Below are positions 5,950 through 48,840 of a stretch of DNA of 64,000 bases, piece by piece. The position numbers and the translations under genes were made by a program. Source of the stretch: Escherichia phage P896; the sequence record OL451225.1; one strand, given 5' to 3'. A model generated the notes under the pieces. The model did no database searches. It was given only the letters and a program-made list of their open reading frames with translations, and was not told where the DNA came from. Positions within the stretch are counted from its first letter, which is position 1. Each line of letters opens with the position of its first letter.

Positions 5950-6005
5950 ATATTTTCCTCATATTAGTTTCTACTTTGTACTCCATGGGGTCAAAGCCCC
6001 ATTTA

Positions 6006-6701
6006 TTAATCTTGGAATTCGTGGCTAGAGCCTTGTTCCATTGCAATCACATAGCTTGCTTGTGTGCCTTCAAACTTCGTAGCAAATTTATCATCTTTCG
6101 CCCAAAGCATAACACGGTAATCAGCCGGAATCATTTTCATGTTCAGTTTGTTAATGATAAATTTGAACGCTGCATCGCCTTCATAATCACCACACACCAG
6201 GGAATACAATGGACGCGTTAATTCTTTATCTTCGAGCTGGTTATAACCATGGATAACAATCTTACCGTCTTTGTTGGTGATTGCAAAAGTATCCAGAGAC
6301 AAACCACCAGCCACACGCAGAAGCTGCTGCAGGTCACTACCTTTCAGGTCGAAGATAACCTTAGCTACCGGGAAAGGAATCTTCTTAGCAGGGAACACGA
6401 TAGTGCTCGGGTCAGCTGCAGGCCAGTGAATCGTTGAACGTTGGTCTTTGATAATGATATTCGATGCATCTTCAGCCAGGGATACTTCAGCTTGGTCAGT
6501 TACCAGGCCCAGAATACTTAAGAAGCCGTTCAGGTCATAAATTGCAGCTTCAAAGTCAATTGTATCATTGATTTCAGATTCACCATATGACGCTCCAGTT
6601 ACAGAACGAGTCAGGATGGTATTACCCGGCTTAAGCATAATGCCAGAGTAAATGGAAGTGAAGTTTTTCAGAACTGCGATAGTGTCTTTAGAGAATTTCA
6701 T
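6006..6701 (-). CDS. 45: sliding clamp gp45
   Basis: 231 aa; N-terminus MKFSKDTIAVLKNF close to recalled T4 gp45 MKLSKDTTALLKNF. Confidence 0.95.
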   Translation of the reverse strand: MKFSKDTIAVLKNFTSIYSGIMLKPGNTILTRSVTGASYGESEINDTIDFEAAIYDLNGFLSILGLVTDQAEVSLAEDASNIIIKDQRSTIHWPAADPSTIVFPAKKIPFPVAKVIFDLKGSDLQQLLRVAGGLSLDTFAITNKDGKIVIHGYNQLEDKELTRPLYSLVCGDYEGDAAFKFIINKLNMKMIPADYRVMLWAKDDKFATKFEGTQASYVIAMEQGSSHEFQD

Positions 6702-6731
6702 TTAATTACCTTTTATTCAAATCAAAATTAA

Positions 6732-7139
6732 TTAAGCAACAACTGCCATTTGTTTGCGGATAGCTTCTGGAAGAGATTCAATATACTCTGGAAGTTGCGC
6801 AGCAATAATAGAACCAGCTTGCACCAGATGGTCGTCAGAGTTAACACAATAATCATCTTCAAGACGTTCGGAACCGTCGCGGTCGATAACCAGTTTAGCA
6901 CCAGCAGCCAGTGAATCGTTGTAGTGATTGCGCATCAGTTCAATCCACTTATCAGATACATCAGTATCAATCACACCATACAACATGAATTTAACTTCTT
7001 GAGGAAGTGATTTCAAACGGGTGGCAGATGCTTCATCACATGCCAGGACCCAGGATTTGCGGACGCGGTTTTGGTTATGTGGGTTGGCGTCGGTGCGGAT
7101 GGTTTTAACTTGGATATCTTTAGCAGTTACGTTGTTCAT
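6732..7139 (-). CDS. rpbA: RNA polymerase binding protein RpbA (by position)
   Basis: ORF 6732..7163 begins on TTG; trimmed to ATG at 7139 preceded by AGAGAGAAT; lies between 46 and 45 as in T4. Confidence 0.55.
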   Translation of the reverse strand: MNNVTAKDIQVKTIRTDANPHNQNRVRKSWVLACDEASATRLKSLPQEVKFMLYGVIDTDVSDKWIELMRNHYNDSLAAGAKLVIDRDGSERLEDDYCVNSDDHLVQAGSIIAAQLPEYIESLPEAIRKQMAVVA

Positions 7140-7389: not shown

Positions 7390-9072
7390 TTATTCCATAA
7401 CAGTGAATCGACCAACTTTTTTCATCTGGAGATGTTGCCCGTATGCTTCCGGGTCATGGTCTCGGTGACTGATAATAAAGATGTTGGTGTCTTCCAATTT
7501 GTTCAGGATGGTAGCAATTGCTTTAACCCCCTCTACATCAGTAGCTGAATCGAAAACTTCGTCCAGAATCAAGGTGTTAATATTAACACCAGATACTTTC
7601 GCAGCAATATCACGCCATGTAAACAGCAATGCAATATCGATACGAGCTTTTTCACCTTGGCTAAATGATGCATAGCTGAAGTCTTCACGTCCACGAGATT
7701 TAATCGTTTCGTTGAACTCTTCATCTAACGTAAAACTATAATCAGCTTCCATAACTTTAAGGTAAGCGTTTATCTGCTTATTAAAGATAGGAATATATTT
7801 CTTAATAATAGCACCTTTGATACCGGAATCTTTCAACATATCCGTTAGGATACCACGTTGATATTTTTCCATCACAAGGTCGGATTTCTGTTTGACTATT
7901 TTATCAAGCTGGTCTTGAAGCATTTTAATGTCTGCCGCATGGTCAATGAATTCTGACTTAGCTTGCTCGATTAATGCTTTAACCTTTTTAGCTTTTTCGA
8001 CAGTCTGGACTAAGGTTTGTTTCTTAGTTTGAATGTCTTGAGCTATTGTACGTTGTTTTTGTCTTGCAGCAGAATACGCATCAAATTGCTCCTGAACAGC
8101 GTTCTGGCGAGCTTTATGGTTATCAGCTGATACATTACATTCTTCAATCTTTGACTCAATCCTGGCGACAATGGGGTCTCCTGGATGCAACTGACTGGCA
8201 CAAGTCTGACAACAACCACCTTTCTCGTACAGACCAACAACCTTTCGGTAATCGTCTATCTTCGACTTAATCAGGAATGATTCCTGCTTTAACTTCGTGA
8301 GTTCATGCTCAGGGTCTTCTCCCAAGATTATCTCGGTCAGTCTTGTCGTTGCTTCTTCGATAGTCGTTTTGATTCCACGTGCTTCCGTAGCAAGTTCATC
8401 ATACATCGTTTGTAGCCGCAACAGATTATCACCTGATAATTTTCTTTGACGGTCTTCGTTGTCCTGATAGATTTTAATCTGTTGAACAATACCATCATGC
8501 TGCACATCCATCACCTGGATTTGACTATTGACTTCGCGGATAAGAGATTTGTTCAGCTTATCCATATCGGCCAGTACAGAAACCTCTAAAAGGTCTTCGA
8601 CAAGTTTTCTTCTTGCAGGAGTGGATAGGCCCATAAAAGGGGTATATCCAGCTGTGCCGAGTACGACAATCTGTTTGAAGCTTGCATAGGACATTCCGAT
8701 AAGCTGTTCAAATTCCGCTTGGAAGTCTTTACTGCTGGCAGATTCATCAAGACGTTTACCGCCACAAGAGATTTCAAAAACATTGGGTTTTTGCCCGCGT
8801 TTGATATAGTATTCTTTTCCATCATATTCCATCCACAATTCAACGAGCATATCTTTTTTGTTGCTCGAGTTAATCAACTGGCCTTTCTTTACATCACGGA
8901 AAGGCTTACCGAACATAGCAAAGGTAACCGCTTCAAGGAACGTAGATTTACCCGCGCCATTCTTACCGGTGACCAGAGTTTTTTGGACTTTATCCAGTTC
9001 AACAGTAATCGGTTGAGCACCAACCGACATAATATTTTTATAGATAACTTTCTTAAGCTTAAAAGTCTTCAT
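7390..9072 (-). CDS. 46: recombination endonuclease subunit gp46 (SbcC/Rad50-like ATPase)
   Basis: Walker A GKNGAGKST near N-terminus, long coiled-coil middle, C-terminal signature/Walker B; start set at MKTFKL (T4 gp46 begins MKNFKL). Confidence 0.93.
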   Translation of the reverse strand: MKTFKLKKVIYKNIMSVGAQPITVELDKVQKTLVTGKNGAGKSTFLEAVTFAMFGKPFRDVKKGQLINSSNKKDMLVELWMEYDGKEYYIKRGQKPNVFEISCGGKRLDESASSKDFQAEFEQLIGMSYASFKQIVVLGTAGYTPFMGLSTPARRKLVEDLLEVSVLADMDKLNKSLIREVNSQIQVMDVQHDGIVQQIKIYQDNEDRQRKLSGDNLLRLQTMYDELATEARGIKTTIEEATTRLTEIILGEDPEHELTKLKQESFLIKSKIDDYRKVVGLYEKGGCCQTCASQLHPGDPIVARIESKIEECNVSADNHKARQNAVQEQFDAYSAARQKQRTIAQDIQTKKQTLVQTVEKAKKVKALIEQAKSEFIDHAADIKMLQDQLDKIVKQKSDLVMEKYQRGILTDMLKDSGIKGAIIKKYIPIFNKQINAYLKVMEADYSFTLDEEFNETIKSRGREDFSYASFSQGEKARIDIALLFTWRDIAAKVSGVNINTLILDEVFDSATDVEGVKAIATILNKLEDTNIFIISHRDHDPEAYGQHLQMKKVGRFTVME

Positions 9073-29252: not shown

Positions 29253-29825
29253 TCAGCTTGTTAATTCGAGCCAATGTTTTCTGCACAAAGATACGTACGA
29301 TTCATTCCCACCGACCAATACTTGCTCGCCGTCCTTTACAGCAGCACCGTCGATTACTCGAGCGGTCATGGTTGCTTTCCGGCCGCAATGACAGACGCCC
29401 TTTAATTCAACCAGTTTATCCGAAATAGCCAGAAGTCTGGCCGAACCGGGAAATAATTGACCCCGAAAATCTGTTCTTAACCCGTAACACATAACGGGGA
29501 TATTGTAATTATCAACCACTTGAGCTAACTGGTCAATTTGCTCTGGTAACAAAAATTGAGCTTCATCGACCAGGACACAATGGATATCCTTTTGAGACTC
29601 GGCCCATTTATAGAATTCAAACAGGTTCATGTCGGCCGTTACCAGGTTTGCTTCCTGGCTAATACCAATGCGTGATTTAATTTCAGATTCCGAGTCCCGA
29701 TTATCAATAACAGGTTTTAGCAAAAGCACACTCATTCCACGCTCTTTATAGGAATAAGCTGCAGTCAGCAATGAAGCTGTTTTGCCTGCATTCATTGCTG
29801 CGTAATGATAAATTAAACTCGCCAT
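29253..29825 (-). CDS. tk: thymidine kinase
   Basis: 190 aa; P-loop MNAGKTASLL, VDEAQF, C-terminal zinc ribbon CxCG; matches recalled T4 Tk. Confidence 0.93.
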   Translation of the reverse strand: MASLIYHYAAMNAGKTASLLTAAYSYKERGMSVLLLKPVIDNRDSESEIKSRIGISQEANLVTADMNLFEFYKWAESQKDIHCVLVDEAQFLLPEQIDQLAQVVDNYNIPVMCYGLRTDFRGQLFPGSARLLAISDKLVELKGVCHCGRKATMTARVIDGAAVKDGEQVLVGGNESYVSLCRKHWLELTS

Positions 29826-34278: not shown

Positions 34279-34578
34279 TTAGAAAGAACCAGAACCTTTA
34301 ATTGTGTTCTGGCGACCTTTATTTTCCAATTCAGAATGGTCAATTTCATATGCTTGTGCCACGCCAAAAGCCTTTTTAACTTTAGCTAAAGAACCTTTAG
34401 ATGTAACAATATTAAAAGTATTACCTTTGGTAAAATCAACCAAATCCACTTGTACACCTTGTTTACCGAGGCTTGCGACAATAGCATCAACATATTGTTG
34501 GTCTAAATTGCCCTGGACTCCAATTTGGAATGCTTTAGGAGCTTTGGCTTCAGTAATAAATTCTTGATAAGTTTTCAT
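34279..34578 (-). CDS. internal-protein-like head protein with N-terminal capsid-targeting-like sequence MKTYQEFITE
   Basis: 99 aa starting MKTYQEFITEA; matches the recalled T4 internal protein targeting sequence (MKTYQEFIAE). Confidence 0.6.
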   Translation of the reverse strand: MKTYQEFITEAKAPKAFQIGVQGNLDQQYVDAIVASLGKQGVQVDLVDFTKGNTFNIVTSKGSLAKVKKAFGVAQAYEIDHSELENKGRQNTIKGSGSF

Positions 34579-34635: not shown

Positions 34636-34899
34636 TTATGCTTTACCGCCAGAAACAATACCAAAGGTCTCAAAGTCCCATTCAATATCGTCAACATCAA
34701 CTTTCTTACCAGCAACCACGAATGCGATTTCGCGACGTTTTGCATAGGTGACAATTTCTTTACCATCGCCGCCAAAGAAAGAATAACCATTGCGCTTCAT
34801 GGTGCCAAAGTCTTCAGCATCACCAGCGAATGCGCGGACTTTAAAGGAACCAGCAGGAGCTTTGGCAGATTCAGTAATAAATTCTTGATAAGTTTTCAT
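34636..34899 (-). CDS. internal-protein-like head protein (MKTYQEFITE start)
   Basis: ORF 34636..34938 trimmed to the internal ATG that yields MKTYQEFITESAKAP; 87 aa. Confidence 0.55.
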   Translation of the reverse strand: MKTYQEFITESAKAPAGSFKVRAFAGDAEDFGTMKRNGYSFFGGDGKEIVTYAKRREIAFVVAGKKVDVDDIEWDFETFGIVSGGKA

Positions 34900-35423: not shown

Positions 35424-35726
35424 TTATTTACCTTTAATTGCTTTAGCTGCTTCGATAGCCGCTTGCTGAAGGTCATCCATAGACATGCCGAACTTAGAAG
35501 CAAAGTTATCAATTTTCTTTTCGACAGAATTCAAAGGCTTGGCCTGTTTACCTTCGTTAGCGCCAGGGAGAGCTAGAATACGCTCTTTGTCAATATAAAG
35601 GCTTACAAGTTTCTTACGGTCTTTATCTGGTAAATCATGAAATGAATGGGCCTTTTTATTTACAGCGGCTTCTAATTTACCTGCACTTACGCGCGCTTCG
35701 GTGATAAATTCTTTATACGTTTTCAT
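35424..35726 (-). CDS. internal-protein-like head protein ([10 protein letters not shown] start)
   Basis: 100 aa; N-terminal capsid-targeting-like sequence; between denV and e, where T4 has ipII/ipIII. Confidence 0.6.
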
Positions 35727-36705: not shown

Positions 36706-36934
36706 CGTCACGTTCCCAAGATTTTTTAAAGATTTCGGCCATAATAATTTCAACGCGTGTTTCTGTTGATGGGCTTTCACTATCAGTTATTTGCACCATA
36801 TAGTCAGAAATCGGGCAGAACATATCCAAGTCAGTTTCTAAATCATCTTTGATTTTCTCTTCTGATGTACCTGTATCATAGGAATACAGATAAGAATCAC
36901 ATGACTCGGATTTAATATAAATTGCAATACTCAT
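36698..36934 (-). CDS. hypothetical acidic protein, 78 aa
   Basis: ORF track; ATG with GAGGAA RBS. Confidence 0.45.
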   Translation of the reverse strand: MSIAIYIKSESCDSYLYSYDTGTSEEKIKDDLETDLDMFCPISDYMVQITDSESPSTETRVEIIMAEIFKKSWERDDE

Positions 36935-37515
36935 TTACGGCATTCCTCAATAAAAGAGTTTAATGTATTTTTCTTGGCGATATCATCATATACCTTTTTA
37001 ACTTTAGAAATACGAAAAGGTACTTCAATAGCCATAGTCCATAAAAATGATGCAATAAGTCCAACAGCAGCAGAAGAAATGCACGCGCCCATTACAGCCA
37101 CAGGTGCTTCATTTTTACCCGTCAAGAAAAACCACAGGATTGGTAAAAATAAGATTCCAGCCCAGGCATAAAACCTGGAACAAATTAACTTATCAAATTC
37201 ATCTTTCCAGGTACGAAATCCATATTTCTTGCTATAAGAAATTAATGGGTCGGGTGTCTGTTCTTTGAGTGGTTCCGGTTGATACCCATTAACAATATAT
37301 CCCATTTTATATTCCTTAATTAAAAGCTCTTTCACATGACGATTGCATCGCGACCAATCAACATTTTCCACCTTGATTCCTTCATCACCATCGTCAAGGT
37401 TCGCCCAATATTTTTTGGTAATCATAAATTCATCTCTTGATACAATTATACCTGCATTTTCTGCCCGACGGATGAAGTTTACATCAACACCCATACAACC
37501 AGGTTCATACAGCAT
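36931..37515 (-). CDS. membrane protein, 194 aa, C-terminal FIEECRK tail
   Basis: ORF track; two hydrophobic helices near the C-terminus; tail motif shared with three genes at 41765..43011. Confidence 0.55.
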   Translation of the reverse strand: MLYEPGCMGVDVNFIRRAENAGIIVSRDEFMITKKYWANLDDGDEGIKVENVDWSRCNRHVKELLIKEYKMGYIVNGYQPEPLKEQTPDPLISYSKKYGFRTWKDEFDKLICSRFYAWAGILFLPILWFFLTGKNEAPVAVMGACISSAAVGLIASFLWTMAIEVPFRISKVKKVYDDIAKKNTLNSFIEECRK

Positions 37516-38201
37516 TACCAGCCCTCCATAGGAAATTCCAGATATACTTGAGCATTAACGCGGATTTCATTGGTGATTTTATTAACGCGGTCAGTTTTAC
37601 GAGATACGCGACCAAACCAGCGCCAACCATTACCAACCGTTTTTGTTCCAGTATGCCAGGTCTGCCAGTTGAATTCACACAACGTGCGGTCAGGAGCTTC
37701 TTGAACTAAAAGTTCACCCGCCTTGATTTTTTCCAGAACTTCCTGATGCCACTGGCGATAGATAAGTTCGCCATCAGGAATCTGACTGAATTCTGAAGTT
37801 CCCAGAGCAAAATGAGTAGGGCAAACAGAAGCGTTAACCAGACCCAGGATGTGTTCAGAATGGTAACGAGGGTTATCATAATCAGGTTGTCCTGCTGTAA
37901 TAAAATGTTGTCCTGCTGGAATATCTGGACGTGGTACATCATCATGGTGATACCCAGGGATAGCAGGATACCAACCAGGCATCAACATATGGACGCGAGA
38001 GTCAAATACAACCTGGTCAGTGTTCCAATCATCCGGCAGGTTCATGATGAAGCTGCGAGTAATAGGACCGCCATTATCAAAAGCGAAGGCTAACGAGCTG
38101 TTGAAGAACATAGTTTCGTTTTTGATTTTATCGTTAGAAATTTTACCAGCAAATTGACCAACTTCACGCATTTGACTATTAAAAGTTTTTGAGCTATTCA
38201 T
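37515..38201 (-). CDS. hypothetical protein, 228 aa
   Basis: ORF 37515..38339 trimmed to ATG at 38201 (GAGGAAAAT RBS); His/Asp-rich segment HHDDVPRPD. Confidence 0.55.
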   Translation of the reverse strand: MNSSKTFNSQMREVGQFAGKISNDKIKNETMFFNSSLAFAFDNGGPITRSFIMNLPDDWNTDQVVFDSRVHMLMPGWYPAIPGYHHDDVPRPDIPAGQHFITAGQPDYDNPRYHSEHILGLVNASVCPTHFALGTSEFSQIPDGELIYRQWHQEVLEKIKAGELLVQEAPDRTLCEFNWQTWHTGTKTVGNGWRWFGRVSRKTDRVNKITNEIRVNAQVYLEFPMEGW

Positions 38202-38211
38202 GATATTTTCC

Positions 38212-38448
38212 TCAGTATTCTTCATCATATTCAAAGTCTTCATCAAACTCGGGTTCCAGAGAAATTTCTTCTTCCGGGTGGAATTCACAAGGGAAGTATT
38301 CCACTTCACCACAATCGGCGTCATAGGACTGGAAATCAATTTGGATTACGGTTTCGGATACAACAATAACTTCAGCAACCAAGTCACCTGCAATTTCCAT
38401 TCCAACTTTAACATCTTTAGCTTTGATAGTATTCATTTTATTCTCCAA
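38212..38448 (-). CDS. hypothetical strongly acidic protein, 78 aa
   Basis: ORF track; C-terminal EEEISLEPEFDEDFEYDEEY. Confidence 0.5.
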   Translation of the reverse strand: MENKMNTIKAKDVKVGMEIAGDLVAEVIVVSETVIQIDFQSYDADCGEVEYFPCEFHPEEEISLEPEFDEDFEYDEEY

Positions 38449-38449
38449 T

Positions 38450-38502
38450 TTGGTAACTCAGTATGGAATCATTATGCACTGACTCCATACTGATGTACAC
38501 AC
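38450..38502 (-). promoter_or_regulatory. early promoter cassette (-35 GTGTACA, 17-bp spacer, -10 CATAAT, inverted repeat CAGTATGGA/TCCATACTG bracketing the -10)
   Basis: Read on the minus strand; clearest copy of the CAGTATGG class. Confidence 0.6.
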
Positions 38503-39462
38503 TTATTTTGTGAAAGGACGAATTAAATGTTGGTTAGCCTTAAAGCGTTTAACATAGTCTTCGCGACCCAGGGTGTTGTACATATTAACCACTTCCTGGT
38601 AATGTTCCCAGGCATACTCGCGGAACCATCCAGAAGTAATGGAGGTACAGACTTTTTCCAGCGCAATATGGAAGCTCACAGATGGAGAGATATTGAACTC
38701 ATTAGGAACCTGCGAACGCTCCAGAGCGAGCACACATGCTTCTTCATAAACCCCTGCCAGTTTAATAATCTCAGGGAGTGCTTCAAATTTTTCACGCGAG
38801 GTCATGACTTCTGAATCATCCTTCATATAAAACTTATATGCAGGCTTATCAGCAAGCGCCACAGCCTCGTGGATGGAGTCATGGTCAAGGGTGTAGATTG
38901 TATCATTAAAGAAAGTTTTCTTGCCCACGTCTAGTTTAGGGTGACTGTATGACAGTGTTTCTGCCTGACGCTGCAGCATGATTTTCTGCAGTTCATCATT
39001 AAGAACAATACCCTTATTGCGAAGGTAATTAATATGACTCATGGTCTTCAGGAAGAATGGATTGTTCTTCAGGTAACGATGAGACAATTTAATCGCCAGA
39101 CAAATATCAGGCGTCGCCCAATAGAAACCTGTAAGACGGTCTTTCTTAATATGATTTTCAGCGTATTTCAAGAGACGATAACTTGAGGTGAAATCTTCGT
39201 CTTGAAGCTCACCAGTAATTTCTCGTACGTTGGTCAGGGCACGGACAATATAAGCTTCAAAATAGGTTTCTTTGCCATTGTACATACATTTAAAAGCTTG
39301 GACATCAGGGTTATCCACAGGAACATGAGCACCGAACATACGTGCTTTAAAGTGGTTCCAAGAACCCTGGTCAGCGATAAAGTCCCAATCAGAGTTTTCA
39401 ATTTTCTGACTTTCAATCAGACCAGCGTTATGTAATGCACGAGAACCAATAACTAACATCAT
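38503..39462 (-). CDS. hypothetical protein, 319 aa
   Basis: ORF track; ATG with GAGGAAAAT RBS; no firm motif. Confidence 0.6.
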   Translation of the reverse strand: MMLVIGSRALHNAGLIESQKIENSDWDFIADQGSWNHFKARMFGAHVPVDNPDVQAFKCMYNGKETYFEAYIVRALTNVREITGELQDEDFTSSYRLLKYAENHIKKDRLTGFYWATPDICLAIKLSHRYLKNNPFFLKTMSHINYLRNKGIVLNDELQKIMLQRQAETLSYSHPKLDVGKKTFFNDTIYTLDHDSIHEAVALADKPAYKFYMKDDSEVMTSREKFEALPEIIKLAGVYEEACVLALERSQVPNEFNISPSVSFHIALEKVCTSITSGWFREYAWEHYQEVVNMYNTLGREDYVKRFKANQHLIRPFTK

Positions 39463-39475
39463 AATATTTTCCTCA

Positions 39476-39643
39476 TTAGTAAAGACGAGTTACTTCATAT
39501 TTTCCAAGTGCCGATTTTTTCGCTTCAATTCGTGAGGCAGCAAGATTGGCGGCCTCTAGTGAAGAAAATTGAACCACTTGAGAAGTATTCTGTCTTACTC
39601 CACCTTGCGGGTGAGTGACAAAAACAATAAGAACATTATACAT
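39476..39643 (-). CDS. possible small protein, 55 aa
   Basis: Below ORF-track cutoff; ATG with GAGGAAAAT RBS filling the gap between two genes. Confidence 0.35.
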   Translation of the reverse strand: MYNVLIVFVTHPQGGVRQNTSQVVQFSSLEAANLAASRIEAKKSALGKYEVTRLY

Positions 39644-39653
39644 AATATTTTCC

Positions 39654-39854
39654 TCAAATAATACCGTATGCGTAAATATCTCTTTTAATGCAGGAAACTA
39701 CTTCTTCCAGAGAATCACAAACACGTTCTGTGACGCCTGCGTAATCACCACTGATGGTTACTTTAATGCCATCAGAAACTTCCTGGAGATTAACCTCCAG
39801 TTGGTTGACTTTGGCTTCGTTCAGAACTTTGATTAATTCGTTTGCGATAGACAT
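39654..39854 (-). CDS. hypothetical protein, 66 aa
   Basis: ORF track. Confidence 0.45.
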   Translation of the reverse strand: MSIANELIKVLNEAKVNQLEVNLQEVSDGIKVTISGDYAGVTERVCDSLEEVVSCIKRDIYAYGII

Positions 39855-39918
39855 TTTTATTCTCCTGTTCTGATAACGTGATTGTCATCAGTTGATAGGA
39901 GTATAGTAACACAGTTTT

Positions 39919-40263
39919 TTAGACTTGTATACTGCTTCTACAATATTCTAAAAATAATTTATCGTTGTCTACCGTATCCCAACGACGCCAAGATGGATTC
40001 CAGACCAGAGCGTTGTCACCGCAATCATTGAGCTTAAAATGGTCGTAGTACATAGCTATATGTCTGGTTTCGTCACCAGAGAACCCCAGTATAGGCTCAC
40101 CGTGAGTATGATACATATGATGATGCATTGAGAGGTCGCATTTGTAAAACATCTCACGTTTACCACGAACGAACAAGAAGGCTTGCCCATTCATATAGAA
40201 TTCTTTATCTGTTTTCAAAAGATATTTGAATACCGAATCTTTATGCATAATTCCTCCTACCAC
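39919..40263 (-). CDS. hypothetical His-rich protein, 114 aa
   Basis: ORF track; MHHHMYHTHGE segment. Confidence 0.5.
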   Translation of the reverse strand: MVGGIMHKDSVFKYLLKTDKEFYMNGQAFLFVRGKREMFYKCDLSMHHHMYHTHGEPILGFSGDETRHIAMYYDHFKLNDCGDNALVWNPSWRRWDTVDNDKLFLEYCRSSIQV

Positions 40264-40278
40264 ATCCTTGTGATTAAA

Positions 40279-40506
40279 TTATTTTCCTAACGAAATGCGA
40301 GTAGGTTTTTTACCGAAATATTCTTCATAGGAACCATCTAAACGACCCGCTTTAGACCGACAATACGAATCATACTTTTTGTAATAAGCCAACTCGGTAT
40401 TGTAACGTGGATGTCTATCAGCCATAATAATACTTAACGGCCAACCTTTGGCGTAATCACGAAGACCATTTATTTTACGAATATATCTTTTCTTTAATTT
40501 TAACAT
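40279..40506 (-). CDS. hypothetical basic protein, 75 aa
   Basis: ORF track. Confidence 0.45.
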   Translation of the reverse strand: MLKLKKRYIRKINGLRDYAKGWPLSIIMADRHPRYNTELAYYKKYDSYCRSKAGRLDGSYEEYFGKKPTRISLGK

Positions 40507-40733
40507 GAACTTGGGTACCAGATTTTACCATCGGCACTAGCAACGAAGGTGCGACCAGCTTCTTCCCCATAACAAGAGCTGTTCAACCAGTCTTCAAGAC
40601 GGACTTCGCCGTCATAATCATCAAGCTCAACACCAAAATCTTGAGCAGAAGCCATATCTTTTACTTTCTTATACAGTGCAGCCAGTTCAAGGGCGGCTTT
40701 TTCTAATTCAGCACGTTCAACAGCAGTAGTCAT
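40500..40733 (-). CDS. small acidic protein, member 1 of a W-x-SS-x-x-C C-terminal paralog array (ends KIWYPSSC)
   Basis: ORF track; N-terminal helix and C-terminal Cys as last residue. Confidence 0.5.
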   Translation of the reverse strand: MTTAVERAELEKAALELAALYKKVKDMASAQDFGVELDDYDGEVRLEDWLNSSCYGEEAGRTFVASADGKIWYPSSC

Positions 40734-40742
40734 TTTATCACC

Positions 40743-40970
40743 TTAGCAAGACATAGAGGAGTTAAACCAGAAACCTTTACCATCTGGGATACCGTAATCA
40801 CCACGAATCCAGTCATACTCTTCGTATTCTGGACAACCCGCAGGAATATATCGTTGAAGACTGTCAGCATACACATGAAAGTATTCACCAGTTTTATCGG
40901 CCAGTTGTTCACCTTCACAGATTAGTGCACGGATTTGGTCTTCAATTTCTTTAACAGTTTTAGCAGTCAT
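40743..40970 (-). CDS. small acidic protein, member 2 of the paralog array (ends GFWFNSSMSC)
   Basis: ORF track. Confidence 0.5.
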   Translation of the reverse strand: MTAKTVKEIEDQIRALICEGEQLADKTGEYFHVYADSLQRYIPAGCPEYEEYDWIRGDYGIPDGKGFWFNSSMSC

Positions 40971-40979
40971 TTTATTTCC

Positions 40980-41177
40980 TTAGCATTCATAAGAGGAGGA
41001 CACCCAGGAGCCACCCGTAATTGTAATACAGCCATTGTAAATCGTGATATGACGGTCCAGATGGTTTTCACCTTCGATATAGATATCAGCTTCTTCACGC
41101 TCTTCTTTACAAATCTGGATAACGTTTTCAATAGCTGCCGCGGCAGTACGGATTGCACAATCTAGTTCACGAGACAT
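40980..41177 (-). CDS. small acidic protein, member 3 of the paralog array (ends GGSWVSSSYEC)
   Basis: ORF track. Confidence 0.5.
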   Translation of the reverse strand: MSRELDCAIRTAAAAIENVIQICKEEREEADIYIEGENHLDRHITIYNGCITITGGSWVSSSYEC

Positions 41178-41186
41178 AATAATTCC

Positions 41187-41468
41187 TTAACATTCAGCAG
41201 AAGAGGACACCCAACCACCATTTTCCAGGTCAGTTGTATAGTCATGAGTATTAACAATAGCCCATTCAGGATGACCATGTTCTTCCCAATGAGCAAGGTC
41301 AGCTTTCAGGGCACCAGGAGAATAATAGTCACCGCCCATACCGCGAGCAGGGTATATATTAAAATGAGTCTCATATTTGTCTGCAATTTCCTCGGCACGA
41401 CGAATAGCTTTATGGATGTCATTTACTGCGTTAGCCAGTTCTTTATTTTTACGGTAATCATTCATCAT
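41187..41468 (-). CDS. small acidic protein, member 4 of the paralog array (ends GGWVSSSAEC)
   Basis: ORF track. Confidence 0.5.
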   Translation of the reverse strand: MMNDYRKNKELANAVNDIHKAIRRAEEIADKYETHFNIYPARGMGGDYYSPGALKADLAHWEEHGHPEWAIVNTHDYTTDLENGGWVSSSAEC

Positions 41469-41477
41469 AACGTTTCC

Positions 41478-41768
41478 TTAGCACATTGCCGAAGAGGAGA
41501 CCCAAGCACCAACTGTAACGACACCGTTTTCAACTTCACCGCCGTTGTTTTCAATTTCATTTTTAAACCACTGGGAGCATTCATAACCGACAGGATAATA
41601 TGTACGGCCCGAACCATAATCACCGGTACCAAATTGGATACCATATTCATCTGCGATTTCTTCACAGTGTTTTTCAATTTCAGAGGTCTTATTTAGAAGA
41701 GAATAGATAGCTTTTTCTGCAGATTTCTCATCATAATACTTGGGGATAGCAATTTCAATTTTATTCAT
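41478..41768 (-). CDS. small acidic protein, member 5 of the paralog array (ends GAWVSSSAMC)
   Basis: ORF track. Confidence 0.5.
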   Translation of the reverse strand: MNKIEIAIPKYYDEKSAEKAIYSLLNKTSEIEKHCEEIADEYGIQFGTGDYGSGRTYYPVGYECSQWFKNEIENNGGEVENGVVTVGAWVSSSAMC

Positions 41769-42118
41769 GATTTACATTCCTTAATAAAGGTTTCAAGTTC
41801 ATTGCGTTTTGTTTTGTCTAGGAACTTATTATACTCAGCCATTGCTGAAGCATATCTCTTCCGACTAGGAGCATTCACGGCATTTGTGTGACAGATATCA
41901 TACACAACAGGGATAAAATAAGACACAACAGCCGGAGCGATTATCATAAAGAAGCCCATCTCAATAGGCATCACTCCCTCGATTGCAGCCATAACCGTGG
42001 TCATTACCAGGCCAACCAGGCCGCCAAGCATGGCGGTGACAATCCCTAATAATAAATTGGCACCAATATCATATTCAGCCAATTGATAAACATGTGATGC
42101 AAGACTAGGCCGTTCCAT
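41765..42118 (-). CDS. membrane protein, 117 aa, C-terminal FIKECKS tail
   Basis: ORF 41765..42211 trimmed to ATG at 42118 (AAGGAGG RBS); three hydrophobic helices. Confidence 0.5.
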   Translation of the reverse strand: MERPSLASHVYQLAEYDIGANLLLGIVTAMLGGLVGLVMTTVMAAIEGVMPIEMGFFMIIAPAVVSYFIPVVYDICHTNAVNAPSRKRYASAMAEYNKFLDKTKRNELETFIKECKS

Positions 42119-42464
42119 TACGAACCTCCTTAATAAATTCTTCGGCGCATTTAATTTTGTGCTCTTCTTGTAGGGAAACACATTTTTGTTCCCACTCTTT
42201 AACTCGTCCACGATATCCTTTATTCATATGATTTTGATGCCACACATTTATCAATACCATACACAGGACTGTAATAAAAGGAGCTGCAATTACTAGCGTC
42301 CAGGCGACTCCAACACTAATGATATTCATATCCCCACAAAGCACCATCATTATAACCCCAACGATGCACATGGACAAAGCTCCAAATGGAGGCATAAGGT
42401 CTTTATCAATCTTGTCTGCGTATACAAATTTTTCTGGTTTACTTGGCAGATATAACGTTCGCAT
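42105..42464 (-). CDS. membrane protein, 119 aa, C-terminal FIKEVRN tail
   Basis: ORF 42105..42500 trimmed to ATG at 42464 (AAAGGGG RBS); two hydrophobic helices. Confidence 0.5.
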   Translation of the reverse strand: MRTLYLPSKPEKFVYADKIDKDLMPPFGALSMCIVGVIMMVLCGDMNIISVGVAWTLVIAAPFITVLCMVLINVWHQNHMNKGYRGRVKEWEQKCVSLQEEHKIKCAEEFIKEVRNGTA

Positions 42465-43011
42465 TTTTAACCCCTTTAGCATATTCACGACATTCAGCAA
42501 TAAAACGATTAAGCTTACGTTTCCGTTTACGACTCTCTAATGTGTACTCAGCCGCCAAATCAAGAAGCTCATCTTTATCATAATTTTTAATATCAGTATA
42601 AGTTGGGCGGCGGTCAACCATTCCAAAGTGGTCACCATTTTCCAACATCAAATAACACACCAAATGGTCATCATCGTTCGCATTAATAAGTTGCCTATAA
42701 TCATCTGGGTCATTTAACGCATACACGGAATAACTCAGCCCACCGAATTCCACTCGTTGAATACCTAGATTTACATCAATAATTTCCAAGGCATCTGCAA
42801 AAGAAAGGTCTTCAGCTAAAGCAAAAATAAAAGGCAATTTTGTAGTATCACCGCGGCTAGTTGTTCTTCTTAAGAAATCATTGGAATAACCCAAGTCACC
42901 GCGGATTCTATAAAGAACTGTGTTAGTTTCAGTGGCAAGACCACTACCGCCAAACCAGTCTACATTTGATAGAAGGTCAGTATATAAGCTCATAATTTTC
43001 TCCTCTCCCAA
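42439..43011 (-). CDS. hypothetical protein, 190 aa, C-terminal RFIAECRE motif
   Basis: ORF track; soluble; shares the tail motif with the adjacent membrane proteins. Confidence 0.55.
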   Translation of the reverse strand: MGEEKIMSLYTDLLSNVDWFGGSGLATETNTVLYRIRGDLGYSNDFLRRTTSRGDTTKLPFIFALAEDLSFADALEIIDVNLGIQRVEFGGLSYSVYALNDPDDYRQLINANDDDHLVCYLMLENGDHFGMVDRRPTYTDIKNYDKDELLDLAAEYTLESRKRKRKLNRFIAECREYAKGVKNANVISAK

Positions 43012-43036
43012 TTAGGGGGCAAAGCCCCCTTTTATC

Positions 43037-43630
43037 TTACTTAAGTGAATTGATGTATTCTTCAATGTCAGCGGACGTGGTATCCACACCAACCTGTGGA
43101 CCTTTGAAGGTTTCAACACGCATCAGAGTGTCTTCAATATCAATCTTGGTCAATGCAGCGATTTCAACAACATCATCTGCGGTTGCAATACCTAGGGCAG
43201 ACACCTTACGGGTTTCGCGGATGTATTCCAGTTTAACAGCTAGTTCCTGACGAGAGTCATCCAGCTCTTTAACTTTCAATTTAATTTCATTACGCATTTC
43301 AACATAATCATCTGCCTTCTTACGAAGTTGTTTAGCAGTGCGACGATACAGGAGACCCAGTTTAGCATGGACCTGGACATCAGCACCATCAGCAATCAGT
43401 TTTCGGATTTCACGCTCTTTTGAAGCGGCAAGCTGGTCTTTTTCATTCGCTAACTCGCGGATGCGTTTTTCTTCATTAACAGACTTAACATGGGCAGTCT
43501 GGAGCTCAGTAATCTTATCAATCAGGGTAGAAGCTGCTTTAGTATACTGGTCTTCAATAGACAGGTTTTGCGCCATTGCAGTACCCAGTTTGGAGCGGAT
43601 GAATTCAACAATTTTCTTTAAAGTATTCAT
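43037..43630 (-). CDS. coiled-coil protein, 197 aa (PspA-like architecture, low confidence)
   Basis: ORF track; long heptad-rich helices; similarity to PspA is architectural only. Confidence 0.5.
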
Positions 43631-44104: not shown

Positions 44105-44138
44105 AATATTTTCCTCAGGGGGCTTTCGCCCCAATCAT

Positions 44139-44444
44139 TTAGATTTTGTTTTCCTGCACACCATAATAAAGTTCATCAGACACAATATCCAGGATGCGGC
44201 GAACATATTCATCATGGTATTGGCAGTCAAAATCAAATGCAACAGTAGTTTCCGCTTCACGAGTGAATTTAACTTGCACATTCAGGTGATTAACAACGTT
44301 AGTTAATTTATCAGTAAAGAACTCTTTTGCTACCGCCTGTTGGACTTGCACTTTGAACTTGGTGTTACGAATCATATTTTCAGCAGATGCGAAATTACCA
44401 GTTTTATCAAAGTCAACAAGCGCCAGGTTGATGATGAATTTCAT
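44139..44444 (-). CDS. hypothetical protein, 101 aa
   Basis: ORF track; ATG with GGAGAATAAA RBS. Confidence 0.5.
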   Translation of the reverse strand: MKFIINLALVDFDKTGNFASAENMIRNTKFKVQVQQAVAKEFFTDKLTNVVNHLNVQVKFTREAETTVAFDFDCQYHDEYVRRILDIVSDELYYGVQENKI

Positions 44445-48561: not shown

Positions 48562-48840
48562 CTAAATTTTTGTATATTGTCCAGCTTTAACTTTTTTCAG
48601 TTCACGAGGGCTTACCGCGTAAGTGAATGGAGCATTCCAGGAAGAACTGACTTTGTAACCTTTAGTCAACATCATTGCTGAAACTTTCTTGTTATCAGGA
48701 CCGTTTTCGCCTTTAACAAGAAACAACTCAAATGCGCCCCCATCAACCGGTTTGGCCTTAACCATCAGATGTCCTTTCAGGTCTTCCAGCATATCCGGGT
48801 GACTAATTGATTCGTTAATAAATTCTTGATAAGTTTTCAT
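48562..48840 (-). CDS. internal-protein-like head protein (MKTYQEFINE start)
   Basis: 92 aa with N-terminal capsid-targeting-like sequence. Confidence 0.55.
   Translation of the reverse strand: MKTYQEFINESISHPDMLEDLKGHLMVKAKPVDGGAFELFLVKGENGPDNKKVSAMMLTKGYKVSSSWNAPFTYAVSPRELKKVKAGQYTKI

What the first reader, a model, noticed from the sequence alone, without database searches (positions are those of the whole stretch)
36931..43011. Four genes share a C-terminal F-I-x-E-[CV]-[RK] tail, three of them membrane proteins
Genes 36931..37515, 41765..42118, 42105..42464 and 42439..43011 end in NSFIEECRK, ETFIKECKS, EEFIKEVRN and NRFIAECRE. In three of them the tail follows transmembrane helices and a basic stretch. 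Part of the nucleotide conservation overlaps the RBS of the next gene, but the fourth copy is conserved 20 codons before its stop, which argues for a protein-level motif. Possible roles are a shared interaction or targeting tag on otherwise unrelated proteins.
Basis: seen in the sequence. Interest (0 to 1): 0.45.

Follow-up and report, generated by a model that had tools for sequence, protein, structure and literature searches.

The report
Shared C-terminal tag on T4-like phage proteins
Five neighbouring accessory genes of this T4-like phage (three small membrane proteins and two soluble ones) end in the same short peptide, F-[I/V]-x-x-C-R, which selection keeps at the protein level across many T4-like phage genera and which probably docks these fast-evolving proteins onto one common partner of still unknown function.

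Summary
FI.E[CV][RK] occurs exactly four times in the six-frame translation of the 64 kb window, only in the four named genes; shuffled proteomes give 0.03 hits. The genes are the phage T4 ORFs e.2, e.3, e.4 and e.5 in a Gaprivervirus (96% identical to Shigella phage SP18). A fifth carrier was missed: 39919-40248, ending FLEYCR.

The motif is not an RBS by-product. In 18 genomes from 10 named genera the peptide is kept while the next gene's start lies 17 to about 100 nt from the Phe codon. The Shine-Dalgarno sits in the x-E codons, in the C-R-K codons, or outside the motif. Five of the six Arg codons are used.

The three membrane proteins are not unrelated. They are remote paralogs: a 2-TM hairpin followed by a 37-52 aa basic cytoplasmic helix that ends in the motif. 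e.5 and the 109-aa protein are soluble and share only the tail.

The general core is a hydrophobic residue at -3, then F-[IV]-x-x-[C or aliphatic]-[RK]. The Glu is lineage-specific.

Best reading, by inference: a shared docking or assembly tag. The candidate partner is e.6, always the upstream neighbour of the e.5-position gene and weakly PspA/Vipp1-like. Function is untested and I found no literature on it.

The parts
36931..37515 (-). e.2 ortholog, 194 aa: soluble N-terminal domain (DDGDEGI..DW..C), a 2-TM hairpin, and a cytoplasmic helix ending NSFIEECRK*
   Evidence: SP18 annotation. phrog_2203 E=1e-67. TM segments at residues 115-133 and 139-157. The AF2 model has helix 137-193 continuous from TM2 to the C-terminus, with pLDDT about 85-91 in the hairpin and about 70 in the tail. 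F188, I189, E191, C192 and R193 are invariant in 17 homologs.
36937..36954 (-). Tail motif FIEECR of e.2. Its GAGGAA (E-E codons) also serves as the Shine-Dalgarno of the next gene, whose ATG is 20 nt from the Phe codon.
39919..40248 (-).
   Evidence: phrog_9796. No TM segment. Position-equivalent soluble proteins end SFIQMCRG (Q7622), SFIKYCRG (Marfa), LFIMQCRM (KM16) and NFIRMCRK (COW86c).
39937..39954 (-). Tail motif FLEYCR. No RBS overlap: the next gene's SD-ATG is about 65 nt past the stop codon.
41765..42118 (-). e.3-like gene, 117 aa: 2-TM hairpin plus a 45-aa basic tail ending ETFIKECKS*
   Evidence: phrog_2330 E=8e-46, with a cross-hit to phrog_2203. TM segments at 22-40 and 54-72.
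41771..41788 (-). Tail motif FIKECK. AAGGAA (K-E codons) is the Shine-Dalgarno of the next gene (ATGA stop/start overlap).
42105..42464 (-). e.4 ortholog, 119 aa: 2-TM hairpin plus basic tail ending EEFIKEVRNGTA*, a variant with Val in place of Cys
   Evidence: SP18 annotation. phrog_2604, with a cross-hit to phrog_2330. TM segments at 26-44 and 56-74.
42120..42137 (-). Tail motif FIKEVR. AAGGAGG is the Shine-Dalgarno of e.3 (ATG 19 nt from the Phe codon).
42439..42993 (-). e.5-position gene, 184 aa, soluble: ...ESRKRKRKLNRFIAECREYAKGVKNANVISAK*
   Evidence: phrog_8788. No TM segment. R163, F164, I165, E167, C168, R169, E170, Y171, A172 and K173 are invariant in 19 homologs. There is weak mid-protein homology to T4 e.5 (hhalign P=1e-5), and its C-terminal 25 aa resemble the post-TM segment of e.2.
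42487..42504 (-). Tail motif FIAECR. It is not an SD here (GCTGAA). The e.4 SD (AAAGGGG) and ATG lie 24-40 nt further downstream.
43037..43630 (-). e.6, 197 aa: conserved coiled-coil protein, candidate common partner (inferred only). It is always the gene directly upstream of the e.5-position tail gene.
   Evidence: Synteny in 18 of 18 genomes. Found in 1110 phage records. Weak co-linear similarity to Vipp1 and PspA_IM30.

Best explanation
The four genes, plus a fifth at 39919-40248, carry a C-terminal peptide that selection keeps at the protein level. The consensus is a hydrophobic residue at -3, then F-[I/V]-x-x-[C, rarely V/I/S/M]-[R/K], lying 1-15 residues from the C-terminus.

In e.2, e.3 and e.4 the peptide closes a 37-52 residue Lys/Arg-rich helix that continues from the second helix of a 2-TM hairpin. 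With an N-in/C-in topology it sits in the cytoplasm about 30-45 residues from the membrane. These three proteins are diverged paralogs and inherited the tail by descent. e.5 and the 109-aa protein are soluble, with other N-terminal domains, and carry only the tail module.

Shown: the motif is real, it is protein-level, it is independent of the RBS, the membrane proteins are paralogs, and the motif occurs in every one of 18 genomes sampled from 10 named genera of T4-like phages.

Inferred: the tail is a docking or assembly tag. Through it, a set of fast-evolving membrane anchors and soluble proteins bind one common partner, or bind each other.

More speculative: the partner is e.6. It is the strongly conserved gene directly upstream, and it looks like a remote PspA/IM30/Vipp1-type protein. 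The hairpin proteins would then recruit it to the inner membrane, as PspB/PspC recruit PspA and LiaI recruits LiaH.
For: Occurrence and chance.

Orthology to T4 e.2-e.5.

Independence from the RBS: the offset from the Phe codon to the next ATG is 17, 19, 20, 22, 26, 28, 40, 46 or 66-100 nt. The SD lies in the x-E codons, in the C-R-K codons (tgcAGGAAa), or outside the motif. Five Arg codons and both Cys and Phe codons are used.

Conservation: the tail residues are among the few invariant columns in e.2 (5 of 22 invariant columns) and in e.5. I collected 42 tails, 37 distinct, from 7 gene families, plus further genera. A hairpin-plus-tail profile searched against 1.84 billion representatives found only 6 true members, and all of them keep the tail.

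Paralogy.

Topology and helix.

Substitution pattern: Cys is replaced only by V, I, M or S, which fits a buried helix-packing position.

Lineage-wide behaviour of position 4: the Glu is kept in the E. coli-phage genera (Asp in Tequatrovirus e.3) but absent from all five Kanagawavirus tails, which read G, G, Q, M and N. This fits a constraint imposed by a shared partner.

e.6 synteny.

e.6 versus PspA/Vipp1.

Precedent: small membrane proteins recruit PspA-family proteins (PMC7619361).
Against: There is no direct evidence of any interaction. No function is known for any e.2-e.6 protein, and I found no literature.

Amphipathicity of the tails is only moderate; 2-58% of shuffles reach the observed hydrophobic moment.

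The AF2 model of e.5 is unusable (pLDDT 40).

The e.6-PspA link is below every curated threshold: Pfam 20.4 bits against a 33.9-bit gathering score, PDB E=0.27, hhalign probability 32%.

Part of the similarity among the three membrane proteins is simply common descent, which needs no shared partner.
Confidence: 0.55

Rival explanations
1. By-product of translation-initiation signals. The conserved nucleotides are the A/T-rich leader, Shine-Dalgarno and spacer of the next, translationally coupled gene. The peptide is just what that DNA happens to encode.
For: In three of the four window genes the x-E codons are AAGGAA, GAGGAA or AAGGAGG, 7-9 nt before the next ATG. The x position is K or E exactly when it is used as the SD. 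In Kanagawavirus, E became G, giving AAAGGA.
Against: The peptide is kept with the SD in different codons, 24 nt downstream, or absent altogether: window e.5, the 109-aa gene, and Miller, where the motif lies 33 residues before the stop. Arg and Cys codons vary synonymously. F, I/V, C and R are not explained by any SD.
Confidence: 0.04
2. A relic of paralogy with a purely intramolecular or homo-oligomeric structural role. The tail is the conserved end of a helix that stabilises each protein or its own oligomer. There is no shared partner. The soluble carriers obtained the segment by recombination with a hairpin paralog.
For: e.2, e.3 and e.4 are paralogs. The last 25 residues of e.5 resemble the post-TM segment of e.2 (EYTLESRKQQRKLNRFI against EMPWRLRRQQR..LNDFI). 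The replacement of Cys by V, I or M fits simple packing.
Against: The tail is the best-conserved part of proteins whose remaining sequence diverges beyond BLAST recognition between genera. It persists on soluble proteins with different N-terminal domains of 92-315 aa. All paralogs of one lineage relax the same position together.
Confidence: 0.25
3. A capsid-targeting or prohead-protease signal. The tail copies the core of the internal-protein capsid targeting sequence (MKTYxEFIxE, then A or S) and is bound by the scaffold or cut after Glu by the gp21 protease.
For: The window's four internal-protein genes start MKTY[QK]EFI[TN]E[AS]. FITEAR and FIAEAR in a CTS closely resemble FITECR and FIAECR in tails. 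These CTS and tail sites account for about half of the TTTATTNNNGA matches, which are in excess (15 against 6.2 expected). The CTS is a precedent for diverse proteins that share only a terminal peptide (PMC3012670).
Against: The tail is C-terminal and three carriers are integral membrane proteins. The Glu required for gp21 cleavage (from my own knowledge of the L/I-x-E rule) is missing from the tails of Kanagawavirus, Marfavirus, Moonvirus, Biquartavirus and Pseudotevenvirus. The Kanagawavirus phage nevertheless keeps Glu in its own CTS. The invariant C-R of the tails is variable in the CTS.
Confidence: 0.04
4. A recombination linker. The repeated gene ends act as short homologies that let gene cassettes be gained, lost or swapped in this hyperplastic region, and they are kept for that reason.
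For: Dhakaviruses lack e.4. Their e.5 ends ...YAKEVQNGTA, which is the e.5 tail joined to the last residues of e.4 at the repeated AARGRGGTTnnnAATG (SD-ATG) sequence. Gene content between e.6 and nudE differs in every genus.
Against: The junction uses the SD-ATG repeat, not the F-I-x-x-C-R codons. Paralogous tails share only 13-15 of 18 nt with unrelated flanks, which is too little for homologous recombination. Synonymous variation shows the constraint acts on the amino acids.
Confidence: 0.05
5. A reactive Cys/Arg site. The conserved Cys-Arg is a chemical site, for example metal or disulfide bridging between tails, or a target of a modifying enzyme such as the phage Arg-specific ADP-ribosyltransferases.
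For: C and R are the most conserved pair (30 of 37 and 31 of 37 distinct tails). The e.4 proteins of T4 and Mosigvirus have a Cys two residues later (ESRC, EIRC).
Against: Cys is replaced by V, I, M or S in one or more members of most genomes. That is the pattern of a hydrophobic contact, not of an essential thiol. No partner enzyme is implied by the context.
Confidence: 0.07

Closest known systems
Phage T4 ORFs e.2, e.3, e.4 and e.5 (NP_049738-NP_049741), annotated as hypothetical or predicted membrane proteins; PHROGs 2203, 2330, 2604 and 8788; Pfam PF26896 on e.2
   Same: They are orthologs by position (between e.6 and nudE) and by sequence. The T4 proteins end EFVIDCRKIK, KFVKESRCKSQS and KFVKECREYVKAITIPSK, and intact Tequatrovirus e.2 ends NFITECRKLK.
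   Different: In the window, about 4.2 kb of other genes separate e.3 from e.2. The N-terminal domain of window e.5 is barely recognisable against T4 e.5 (hhalign P=1e-5 over 30 columns). The T4 reference e.2 carries two frameshifts. None of these ORFs has a described function, and I found no description of the shared tail.
Capsid targeting sequence (CTS) of T4 internal proteins
   Same: It is a short terminal peptide that is the only thing shared by otherwise diverse, fast-evolving accessory proteins (PMC3012670). Its core, F-I-x-E followed by a small residue, is nearly identical to the E. coli-phage tails.
   Different: The CTS is N-terminal, sits on soluble virion proteins and requires Glu. 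The tail is C-terminal, sits partly on membrane proteins, requires C-R, and loses Glu in other genera.
Membrane anchors of PspA-family proteins: PspB/PspC with PspA, LiaI with LiaH
   Same: Small inner-membrane proteins with cytoplasmic helices are encoded next to a PspA/IM30-like coiled-coil protein that they recruit to the membrane (PMC7619361). Here, hairpin proteins with cytoplasmic tails lie next to e.6, which aligns co-linearly from residue 1 with Vipp1 and PspA_IM30.
   Different: There is no sequence similarity to PspB, PspC or LiaI (no Pfam hit). The e.6 similarity is below curated thresholds. Several anchors plus soluble proteins share one tag, which has no counterpart in Psp or Lia. 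Nothing has been tested experimentally.
Translational coupling with the SD embedded in the upstream gene's last codons (common in T4)
   Same: Three of the four window tails contain the next gene's SD and an ATGA or overlapping start.
   Different: The amino-acid motif persists whatever the position of the SD, so coupling is an overlay on the motif and not its cause.

Membership tests
T4 e.2/e.3/e.4/e.5 orthologous groups | Significant sequence match to the family models | tested here: met
   phrog_2203 E=1e-67, phrog_2330 E=8e-46, phrog_2604 E=2e-45, phrog_8788 E=2e-109. tblastn reaches Tequatrovirus and Mosigvirus homologs.
T4 e.2/e.3/e.4/e.5 orthologous groups | Position between e.6 and nudE/e on the same strand | tested here: met
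   Window order is e.6, e.5, e.4, e.3, an insert, e.2, a 78-aa ORF, nudE, e. T4 order is e.6, e.5, e.4, e.3, e.2, nudE, e.
2-TM hairpin plus tail paralog family (e.2 C-terminal half, e.3, e.4) | Two hydrophobic helices, a short non-basic loop, and a Lys/Arg-rich C-terminal segment of 37-52 aa ending in the motif | tested here: met
   Hydropathy and charge counts. AF2 hairpin with pLDDT 85-91 and a continuous TM2-tail helix. Pairwise and profile similarity. The topology itself is predicted, not measured.
RBS/TIR-only nucleotide conservation | The motif stays at a fixed distance from the downstream start, and the amino acids are lost when the SD moves | tested here: not met
   Nine offset classes from 17 to about 100 nt, all with the peptide retained. 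Codons vary synonymously.
Capsid targeting sequence / gp21 cleavage site | N-terminal MKTYxEF[IL]xE on a soluble virion protein, with Glu at the cleavage position | tested here: not met
   The tails are C-terminal and three carriers are membrane proteins. Glu is absent from the tails of five other genera, and Kanagawavirus Q7622 keeps Glu in its own CTS.
PspA-anchor type system (PspB/PspC, LiaI) | Neighbour gene belongs to the PspA/IM30/Vipp1 family | tested here: inconclusive
   PF04012 E=4.2e-4 and 9.5e-3 for two Pseudotevenvirus e.6 homologs, below the gathering score. Vipp1 PDB chains at E=0.27-1.1, co-linear over 1-145. hhalign P=4.9e-4, probability 32%. The window e.6 alone gives no hit.
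PspA-anchor type system (PspB/PspC, LiaI) | Sequence membership of the anchors in the PspB, PspC or LiaI families | tested here: not met
   No such Pfam or NCBIfam hit at E<=1 or E<=0.1.
PspA-anchor type system (PspB/PspC, LiaI) | Physical binding of the anchor's cytoplasmic helix to the PspA-like protein | not testable with these tools
   This needs multimer structure prediction or an experiment.
Repeat DNA / gene conversion among paralogs | Nucleotide identity extending beyond the motif and higher within a genome than between orthologs | tested here: not met
   Window tails share 13-15 of 18 nt, and the 12 nt upstream are unrelated.

The most novel reading that the evidence does not exclude
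T4-like phages carry their own Psp-like membrane system. e.6 would be a phage PspA/Vipp1 (ESCRT-III superfamily) protein. The F-[IV]-x-x-C-R tail would be the docking peptide through which a changing set of hairpin membrane anchors (e.2, e.3, e.4 and further paralogs) and soluble adaptors or effectors (e.5, the 109-aa protein) recruit it to, or regulate it at, the inner membrane during infection.
Probability: 0.2. Interest if true: 0.8.

Novelty: new variant of a known kind. Interest (0 to 1): 0.5.

Why it matters
The e.2-e.6 block is present in hundreds of sequenced T4-like phages, yet it has no assigned function. Recognising that up to six proteins per genome are tied together by one conserved C-terminal peptide turns a row of orphan ORFs into a candidate system. 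It comes with a direct experimental handle: tail peptide pull-downs and point mutants at F, C and R. [quoted passage not shown] That would bear on how T4 manages the host inner membrane during infection, lysis inhibition or superinfection. It is also a clean teaching case of a peptide motif and a ribosome-binding site sharing the same codons.

Tried and rejected
- The search for related loci in viral contigs returned only 3 near-identical loci.
- The search for homologous proteins returned only close relatives for e.3, e.5 and e.2. I therefore built the comparative panel from GenBank phage records.
- Pfam and NCBIfam gave nothing above noise for the five tail proteins. PHROGs gave only families of unknown function.
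- The AF2 model of e.5 failed (pLDDT 40), so I ran no fold search on it.
- A Foldseek search of the e.2 model against viral structures found only its own orthologs.
- The hydrophobic moment of the tails was not clearly above shuffles, so I do not claim that 'amphipathic helix' is shown.
- Promoter and terminator scans were at background level.
- Four literature searches for the e.x genes or a phage-encoded PspA found nothing relevant.
- A nucleotide match to the motif pattern at 29759-29775 lies out of frame inside the thymidine kinase gene and is irrelevant.
- ORFs at 44135-44281 and 2928-3083 match F-I-x-x-C-R. I judged them spurious: both are about 50 aa with hydrophobic, low-complexity sequence, and 44135-44281 overlaps the longer ORF 44139-44444 in another frame.
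- Rejected readings: RBS-only, CTS/gp21 site, gene conversion, and recombination linker as the cause of the amino-acid conservation.

Full report
WHAT THE WINDOW IS. The region is 96.3% identical over 7.1 kb to Shigella phage SP18, a Gaprivervirus in the Tevenvirinae. All genes between about 35 and 44 kb run on the minus strand. By annotation and position, the four genes of the finding are the counterparts of phage T4 ORFs:
- e.2 at 36931-37515
- e.3 at 41765-42118
- e.4 at 42105-42464
- e.5 at 42439-42993 (the ATG at 42993 with a strong SD is the likely start, not the TTG at 43011)

They lie between e.6 and nudE/e.

CHECK OF THE OBSERVATION. The peptides are there: NSFIEECRK*, ETFIKECKS*, EEFIKEVRNGTA* and NRFIAECRE followed by 14 more residues. 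FI.E[CV][RK] occurs four times in the six-frame translation of all 64 kb, only at these places. Shuffling a crude 126-ORF proteome 3000 times gave 0.034 hits on average and never more than 2. Because the pattern was written after seeing the data, the stronger argument is its recurrence elsewhere, described below. Three of the proteins have two hydrophobic segments, a short loop with 0-1 basic residues, and 8-9 Lys/Arg in a C-terminal stretch of 37-45 residues. The description 'TM helices, basic stretch, tail' is therefore right.

A FIFTH CARRIER. A relaxed pattern, F-[IVL]-x-x-C-[RK] near the C-terminus, finds gene 39919-40248. It encodes a 109-aa protein with no TM segment, ending ...DNDKLFLEYCRSSIQV*. 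Its stop codon lies about 65 nt before the next gene's SD.

IS IT ONLY THE NEXT GENE'S RBS? No. I assembled the e.6-to-nudE region from 17 further genomes:
- SP18
- T4 and RB10 (Tequatrovirus)
- JN02 and 348Ecol098PP (Mosigvirus)
- JS98, VR5, QL01 and ABTNLsp5 (Dhakavirus)
- Q7622 (Kanagawavirus)
- Marfa (Marfavirus)
- LC53 (Winklervirus)
- 44RR2.8t (Biquartavirus)
- KM16 (Moonvirus)
- COW86c (Erwinia phage, unclassified)
- Miller and EC-W1 (Pseudotevenvirus)

Every genome has the tail on 1 to 6 genes within the stretch fetched.

The distance from the Phe codon to the next gene's ATG takes the values 17, 19, 20, 22, 26, 28, 40, 46 and 66-100 nt.
- At 17-22 nt the SD is the x-E codons (AAGGAA, GAGGAA).
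- At 26-28 nt the SD is in the C-R-K codons (tgcAGGAAa, cgaGGAAAa), and Arg is then written AGG or CGA.
- At 40 nt and beyond the SD lies outside the motif.

In the window's own e.5 the T4-type SD is lost (AAGGAA has become GCTGAA). e.4 starts at a downstream ATG with its own SD, yet FIAECR is intact.

Across 28 distinct 18-nt tails the codon counts are: Phe TTT/TTC; Ile ATT/ATC; Val GTT/GTG/GTA; Cys TGT 12 and TGC 11; Arg CGT 7, CGC 3, CGA 3, AGA 10 and AGG 4. This is what amino-acid-level selection looks like.

The RBS still leaves a mark. The free x residue is K or E when its codon is part of the SD, and A, T, M, I or S otherwise. In Kanagawavirus the fourth residue is Gly where AAAGGA serves as the SD.

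HOW CONSERVED, AND WHAT IS THE REAL MOTIF. In 17 e.2 homologs only 22 columns are invariant, and five of them are F188, I189, E191, C192 and R193. In 19 e.5-type homologs R163-K173 is invariant except for x. The window's e.5 and T4's e.5 share by BLAST only the 13-15 residue tail. A profile comparison finds in addition a weak 30-column match in the middle (P=1e-5), so they are probably very diverged orthologs.

A hairpin-plus-tail profile searched against 1.84 billion cluster representatives found only six true members. This is a small and fast-diverging family. All six end in FIKECKS, FIKEVRN, FIEECRK, FIREVRN or FIDDCKN.

Over 37 distinct tails from the first five genera, position -3 is hydrophobic in 32 (Leu in 21), position +1 is I/V in 36, +3 is E/D in 31 and +4 is Cys in 30. 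F at 0 and R/K at +5 were required by the search pattern.

In the more distant genera Glu disappears from most tails:
- Kanagawavirus: FVKGCR, FVDQCR, FIQMCR, FIKNVR
- Marfavirus: FIKHCR, FIKYCR, WIKGCR
- Moonvirus: FINLCR, FIMQCR, FINSCR
- Biquartavirus: FVDYCR
- Pseudotevenvirus: FIHSCK

. The core is therefore a hydrophobic residue, x-x, F-[IV]-x-x-C-[RK].

Cys is replaced only by V, I, M or S (e.4 types, LC53 FIRGIR, KM16 FVMEMR, COW86c FIQGIR). That is the pattern of a buried contact rather than an essential thiol.

ARE THE CARRIERS UNRELATED? Not the membrane ones.
- e.3 and e.4 align over 84 residues (E=7e-6), and even their N-termini are alike (M-x-K-P-S...).
- The e.3-like protein hits the e.2 PHROG over its hairpin and tail (E=5e-4), and e.4 hits the e.3 PHROG (E=1e-3).
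- Cross-genus BLAST links e.2 C-terminal halves, e.3, e.4 and extra paralogs such as the Mosigvirus 101-aa and Kanagawavirus 106-aa proteins.

They form a paralog family: a 2-TM hairpin followed by a basic cytoplasmic helix ending in the motif. AF2 models the e.2 hairpin with pLDDT 85-91 and runs TM2 on as one helix (137-193) to the C-terminus. The positive-inside rule places both termini in the cytoplasm. That is a prediction, not a measurement.

e.5 and the 109-aa protein are soluble and share only the tail. The last 25 residues of e.5 resemble the post-membrane segment of e.2, so the tail behaves as a module of about 25-45 residues.

WHAT IT MOST LIKELY DOES. The following points are shown:
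- A short C-terminal peptide is the best-kept feature of several proteins per genome that otherwise evolve very fast.
- It sits on membrane-anchored and soluble proteins that would all expose it in the cytoplasm.
- One lineage relaxes the same position in all its copies.

The simplest reading is a common docking or assembly tag. The proteins bind one shared partner, or each other, through the end of this helix. This step is inference.

One candidate partner stands out from the context. In all 18 genomes the gene directly upstream of the e.5-position tail gene is e.6. This holds even in Aeromonas phage 44RR2.8t and in Pseudotevenvirus, where the rest of the block is absent. e.6 is strongly conserved: 75% identity between the window and T4, 53% to Aeromonas phages, and 1110 phage records hold it. 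Its neighbours, in contrast, are hypervariable.

e.6 gives three weak but co-linear signals of being a PspA/IM30/Vipp1-type protein:
- A profile of 10 e.6 homologs aligns residues 1-145 with residues 1-147 of Vipp1 chains (E=0.27-1.1).
- Pfam PspA_IM30 matches the two Pseudotevenvirus homologs from residue 2 to 144 (E=4.2e-4 and 9.5e-3, below the gathering score).
- hhalign against the Vipp1 segment gives P=4.9e-4 and probability 32%.

PspA-family proteins are known to be recruited to the membrane by small inner-membrane proteins, PspB/PspC and LiaI (PMC7619361). I rate the docking-tag reading at about 0.55. I rate the specific version 'tail binds e.6, a phage PspA-like protein' at about 0.2.

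RIVALS.
- RBS by-product: refuted as the cause, but real as an overlay.
- Pure paralogy with only an intramolecular role: possible (about 0.25). It does not explain the soluble carriers or the lineage-wide change well.
- Capsid-targeting or gp21 signal: the internal proteins of this window start MKTY[QK]EFI[TN]E[AS], and FITEAR against FITECR is a striking resemblance. However, the tail is C-terminal, sits on membrane proteins, and loses Glu in genera such as Kanagawavirus, whose own CTS keeps it. I rate this about 0.04.
- Recombination linker: Dhakaviruses have lost e.4 precisely between two copies of the SD-ATG repeat, and their e.5 ends YAKEVQNGTA. The junction is not in the motif codons. 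Paralogous tails share too little DNA for this to drive amino-acid conservation.
- Reactive Cys/Arg site: weakened by the C-to-V/I/M replacements.

COMPARISON WITH WHAT IS KNOWN, AND NOVELTY. The genes are members of known but uncharacterised ORF families (T4 e.2-e.5; PHROGs 2203, 2330, 2604, 8788 and 9796). I found no paper on them or on a phage-encoded PspA. The search library is incomplete, so absence is not proof.

The tag is of a known general kind: a terminal peptide shared by diverse accessory proteins, as with the T4 CTS (PMC3012670). It is a distinct variant, being C-terminal, cytoplasmic, and present on membrane and soluble proteins with a different set of essential residues. It fails the membership tests for a CTS and for PspB/PspC. 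It may nevertheless work like a PspA-anchor system.

VERDICT. This is a real, protein-level, widely conserved C-terminal motif. The claim that the proteins are 'unrelated' was wrong for the membrane proteins. The function is unknown but now testable. Interest is moderate (0.5), and it would rise substantially if the e.6/PspA link holds.

Noticed in passing
window 43037-43630 (-): e.6 is conserved in 1110 phage records and looks like a remote PspA/IM30/Vipp1 (ESCRT-III superfamily) protein. It aligns co-linearly from residue 1 with Vipp1 PDB chains (E=0.27-1.1). Pfam PspA_IM30 hits two Pseudotevenvirus homologs (E=4.2e-4 and 9.5e-3). hhalign gives P=4.9e-4. All signals are below curated thresholds. 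I found no literature on a phage-encoded PspA.
   Followed up: partly
window 40500-41768 (-): Five consecutive small ORFs (65-96 aa; at least two match phrog_899) all end in W-x-[SN]-S-S-x-x-C at the very C-terminus: GAWVSSSAMC*, GGWVSSSAEC*, GSWVSSSYEC*, FWFNSSMSC*, IWYPSSC*. The same family recurs in Kanagawavirus, Marfavirus, Winklervirus, Moonvirus, the Erwinia phage COW86c, and Aeromonas phage 44RR2.8t (L016 3957-4509).
   Followed up: partly
window 38503-39462 (-) and L016 4554-5456: A 319-aa DUF7277+DUF7275 protein (phrog_2141) lies within 0.1-1 kb downstream of the SSS..C family in every genome examined that has the family. In 44RR2.8t this pair sits apart from e.6/e.5. This suggests a separate two-part module.
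   Followed up: no
L005 (T4 NC_000866) 8492-8961: The T4 reference e.2 carries a 1-nt deletion and a compensating 1-nt insertion, relative to RB10, on either side of the hairpin-coding stretch, which introduces stops. The tail NNFITECRKLK* is back in the original frame. This is either a lab-strain lesion or an old sequencing error.
   Followed up: partly
L006 (JS98) 5972-6854; L007, L008, L012: Dhakaviruses lack e.4. e.5 is joined to e.3 at the repeated AARGRGGTTnnnAATG (SD-ATG) sequence, so e.5 ends ...YAKEVQNGTA with the last residues of e.4. This is cassette loss by recombination between translation-initiation repeats.
   Followed up: partly
L013 (348Ecol098PP) 3339-3436: e.3 has an internal deletion of roughly 270 nt that removes both TM helices. 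The 3' remnant still encodes ...NFIKECRK* and serves as the SD and start region of the next gene.
   Followed up: yes
window 34279-34578, 34636-34899, 35424-35726, 48562-48840 (-): Four internal-protein genes have the capsid targeting sequence MKTY[QK]EFI[TN]E. Its F-I-x-E core is identical to the E. coli-phage form of the tail.
   Followed up: partly
window 43014-43030: A G+C-rich stem-loop (AGGGGGCAAAGCCCCCT on the plus strand) sits in the 43-nt gap between e.6 and the e.5 start. On the coding (minus) strand it is not followed by a T run.
   Followed up: no
e.2 homologs P0037-P0066: Precomputed annotation gives Pfam PF26896 for all e.2 homologs, but the local Pfam copy returned no hit for the window e.2. 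I could not read the family's description.
   Followed up: no
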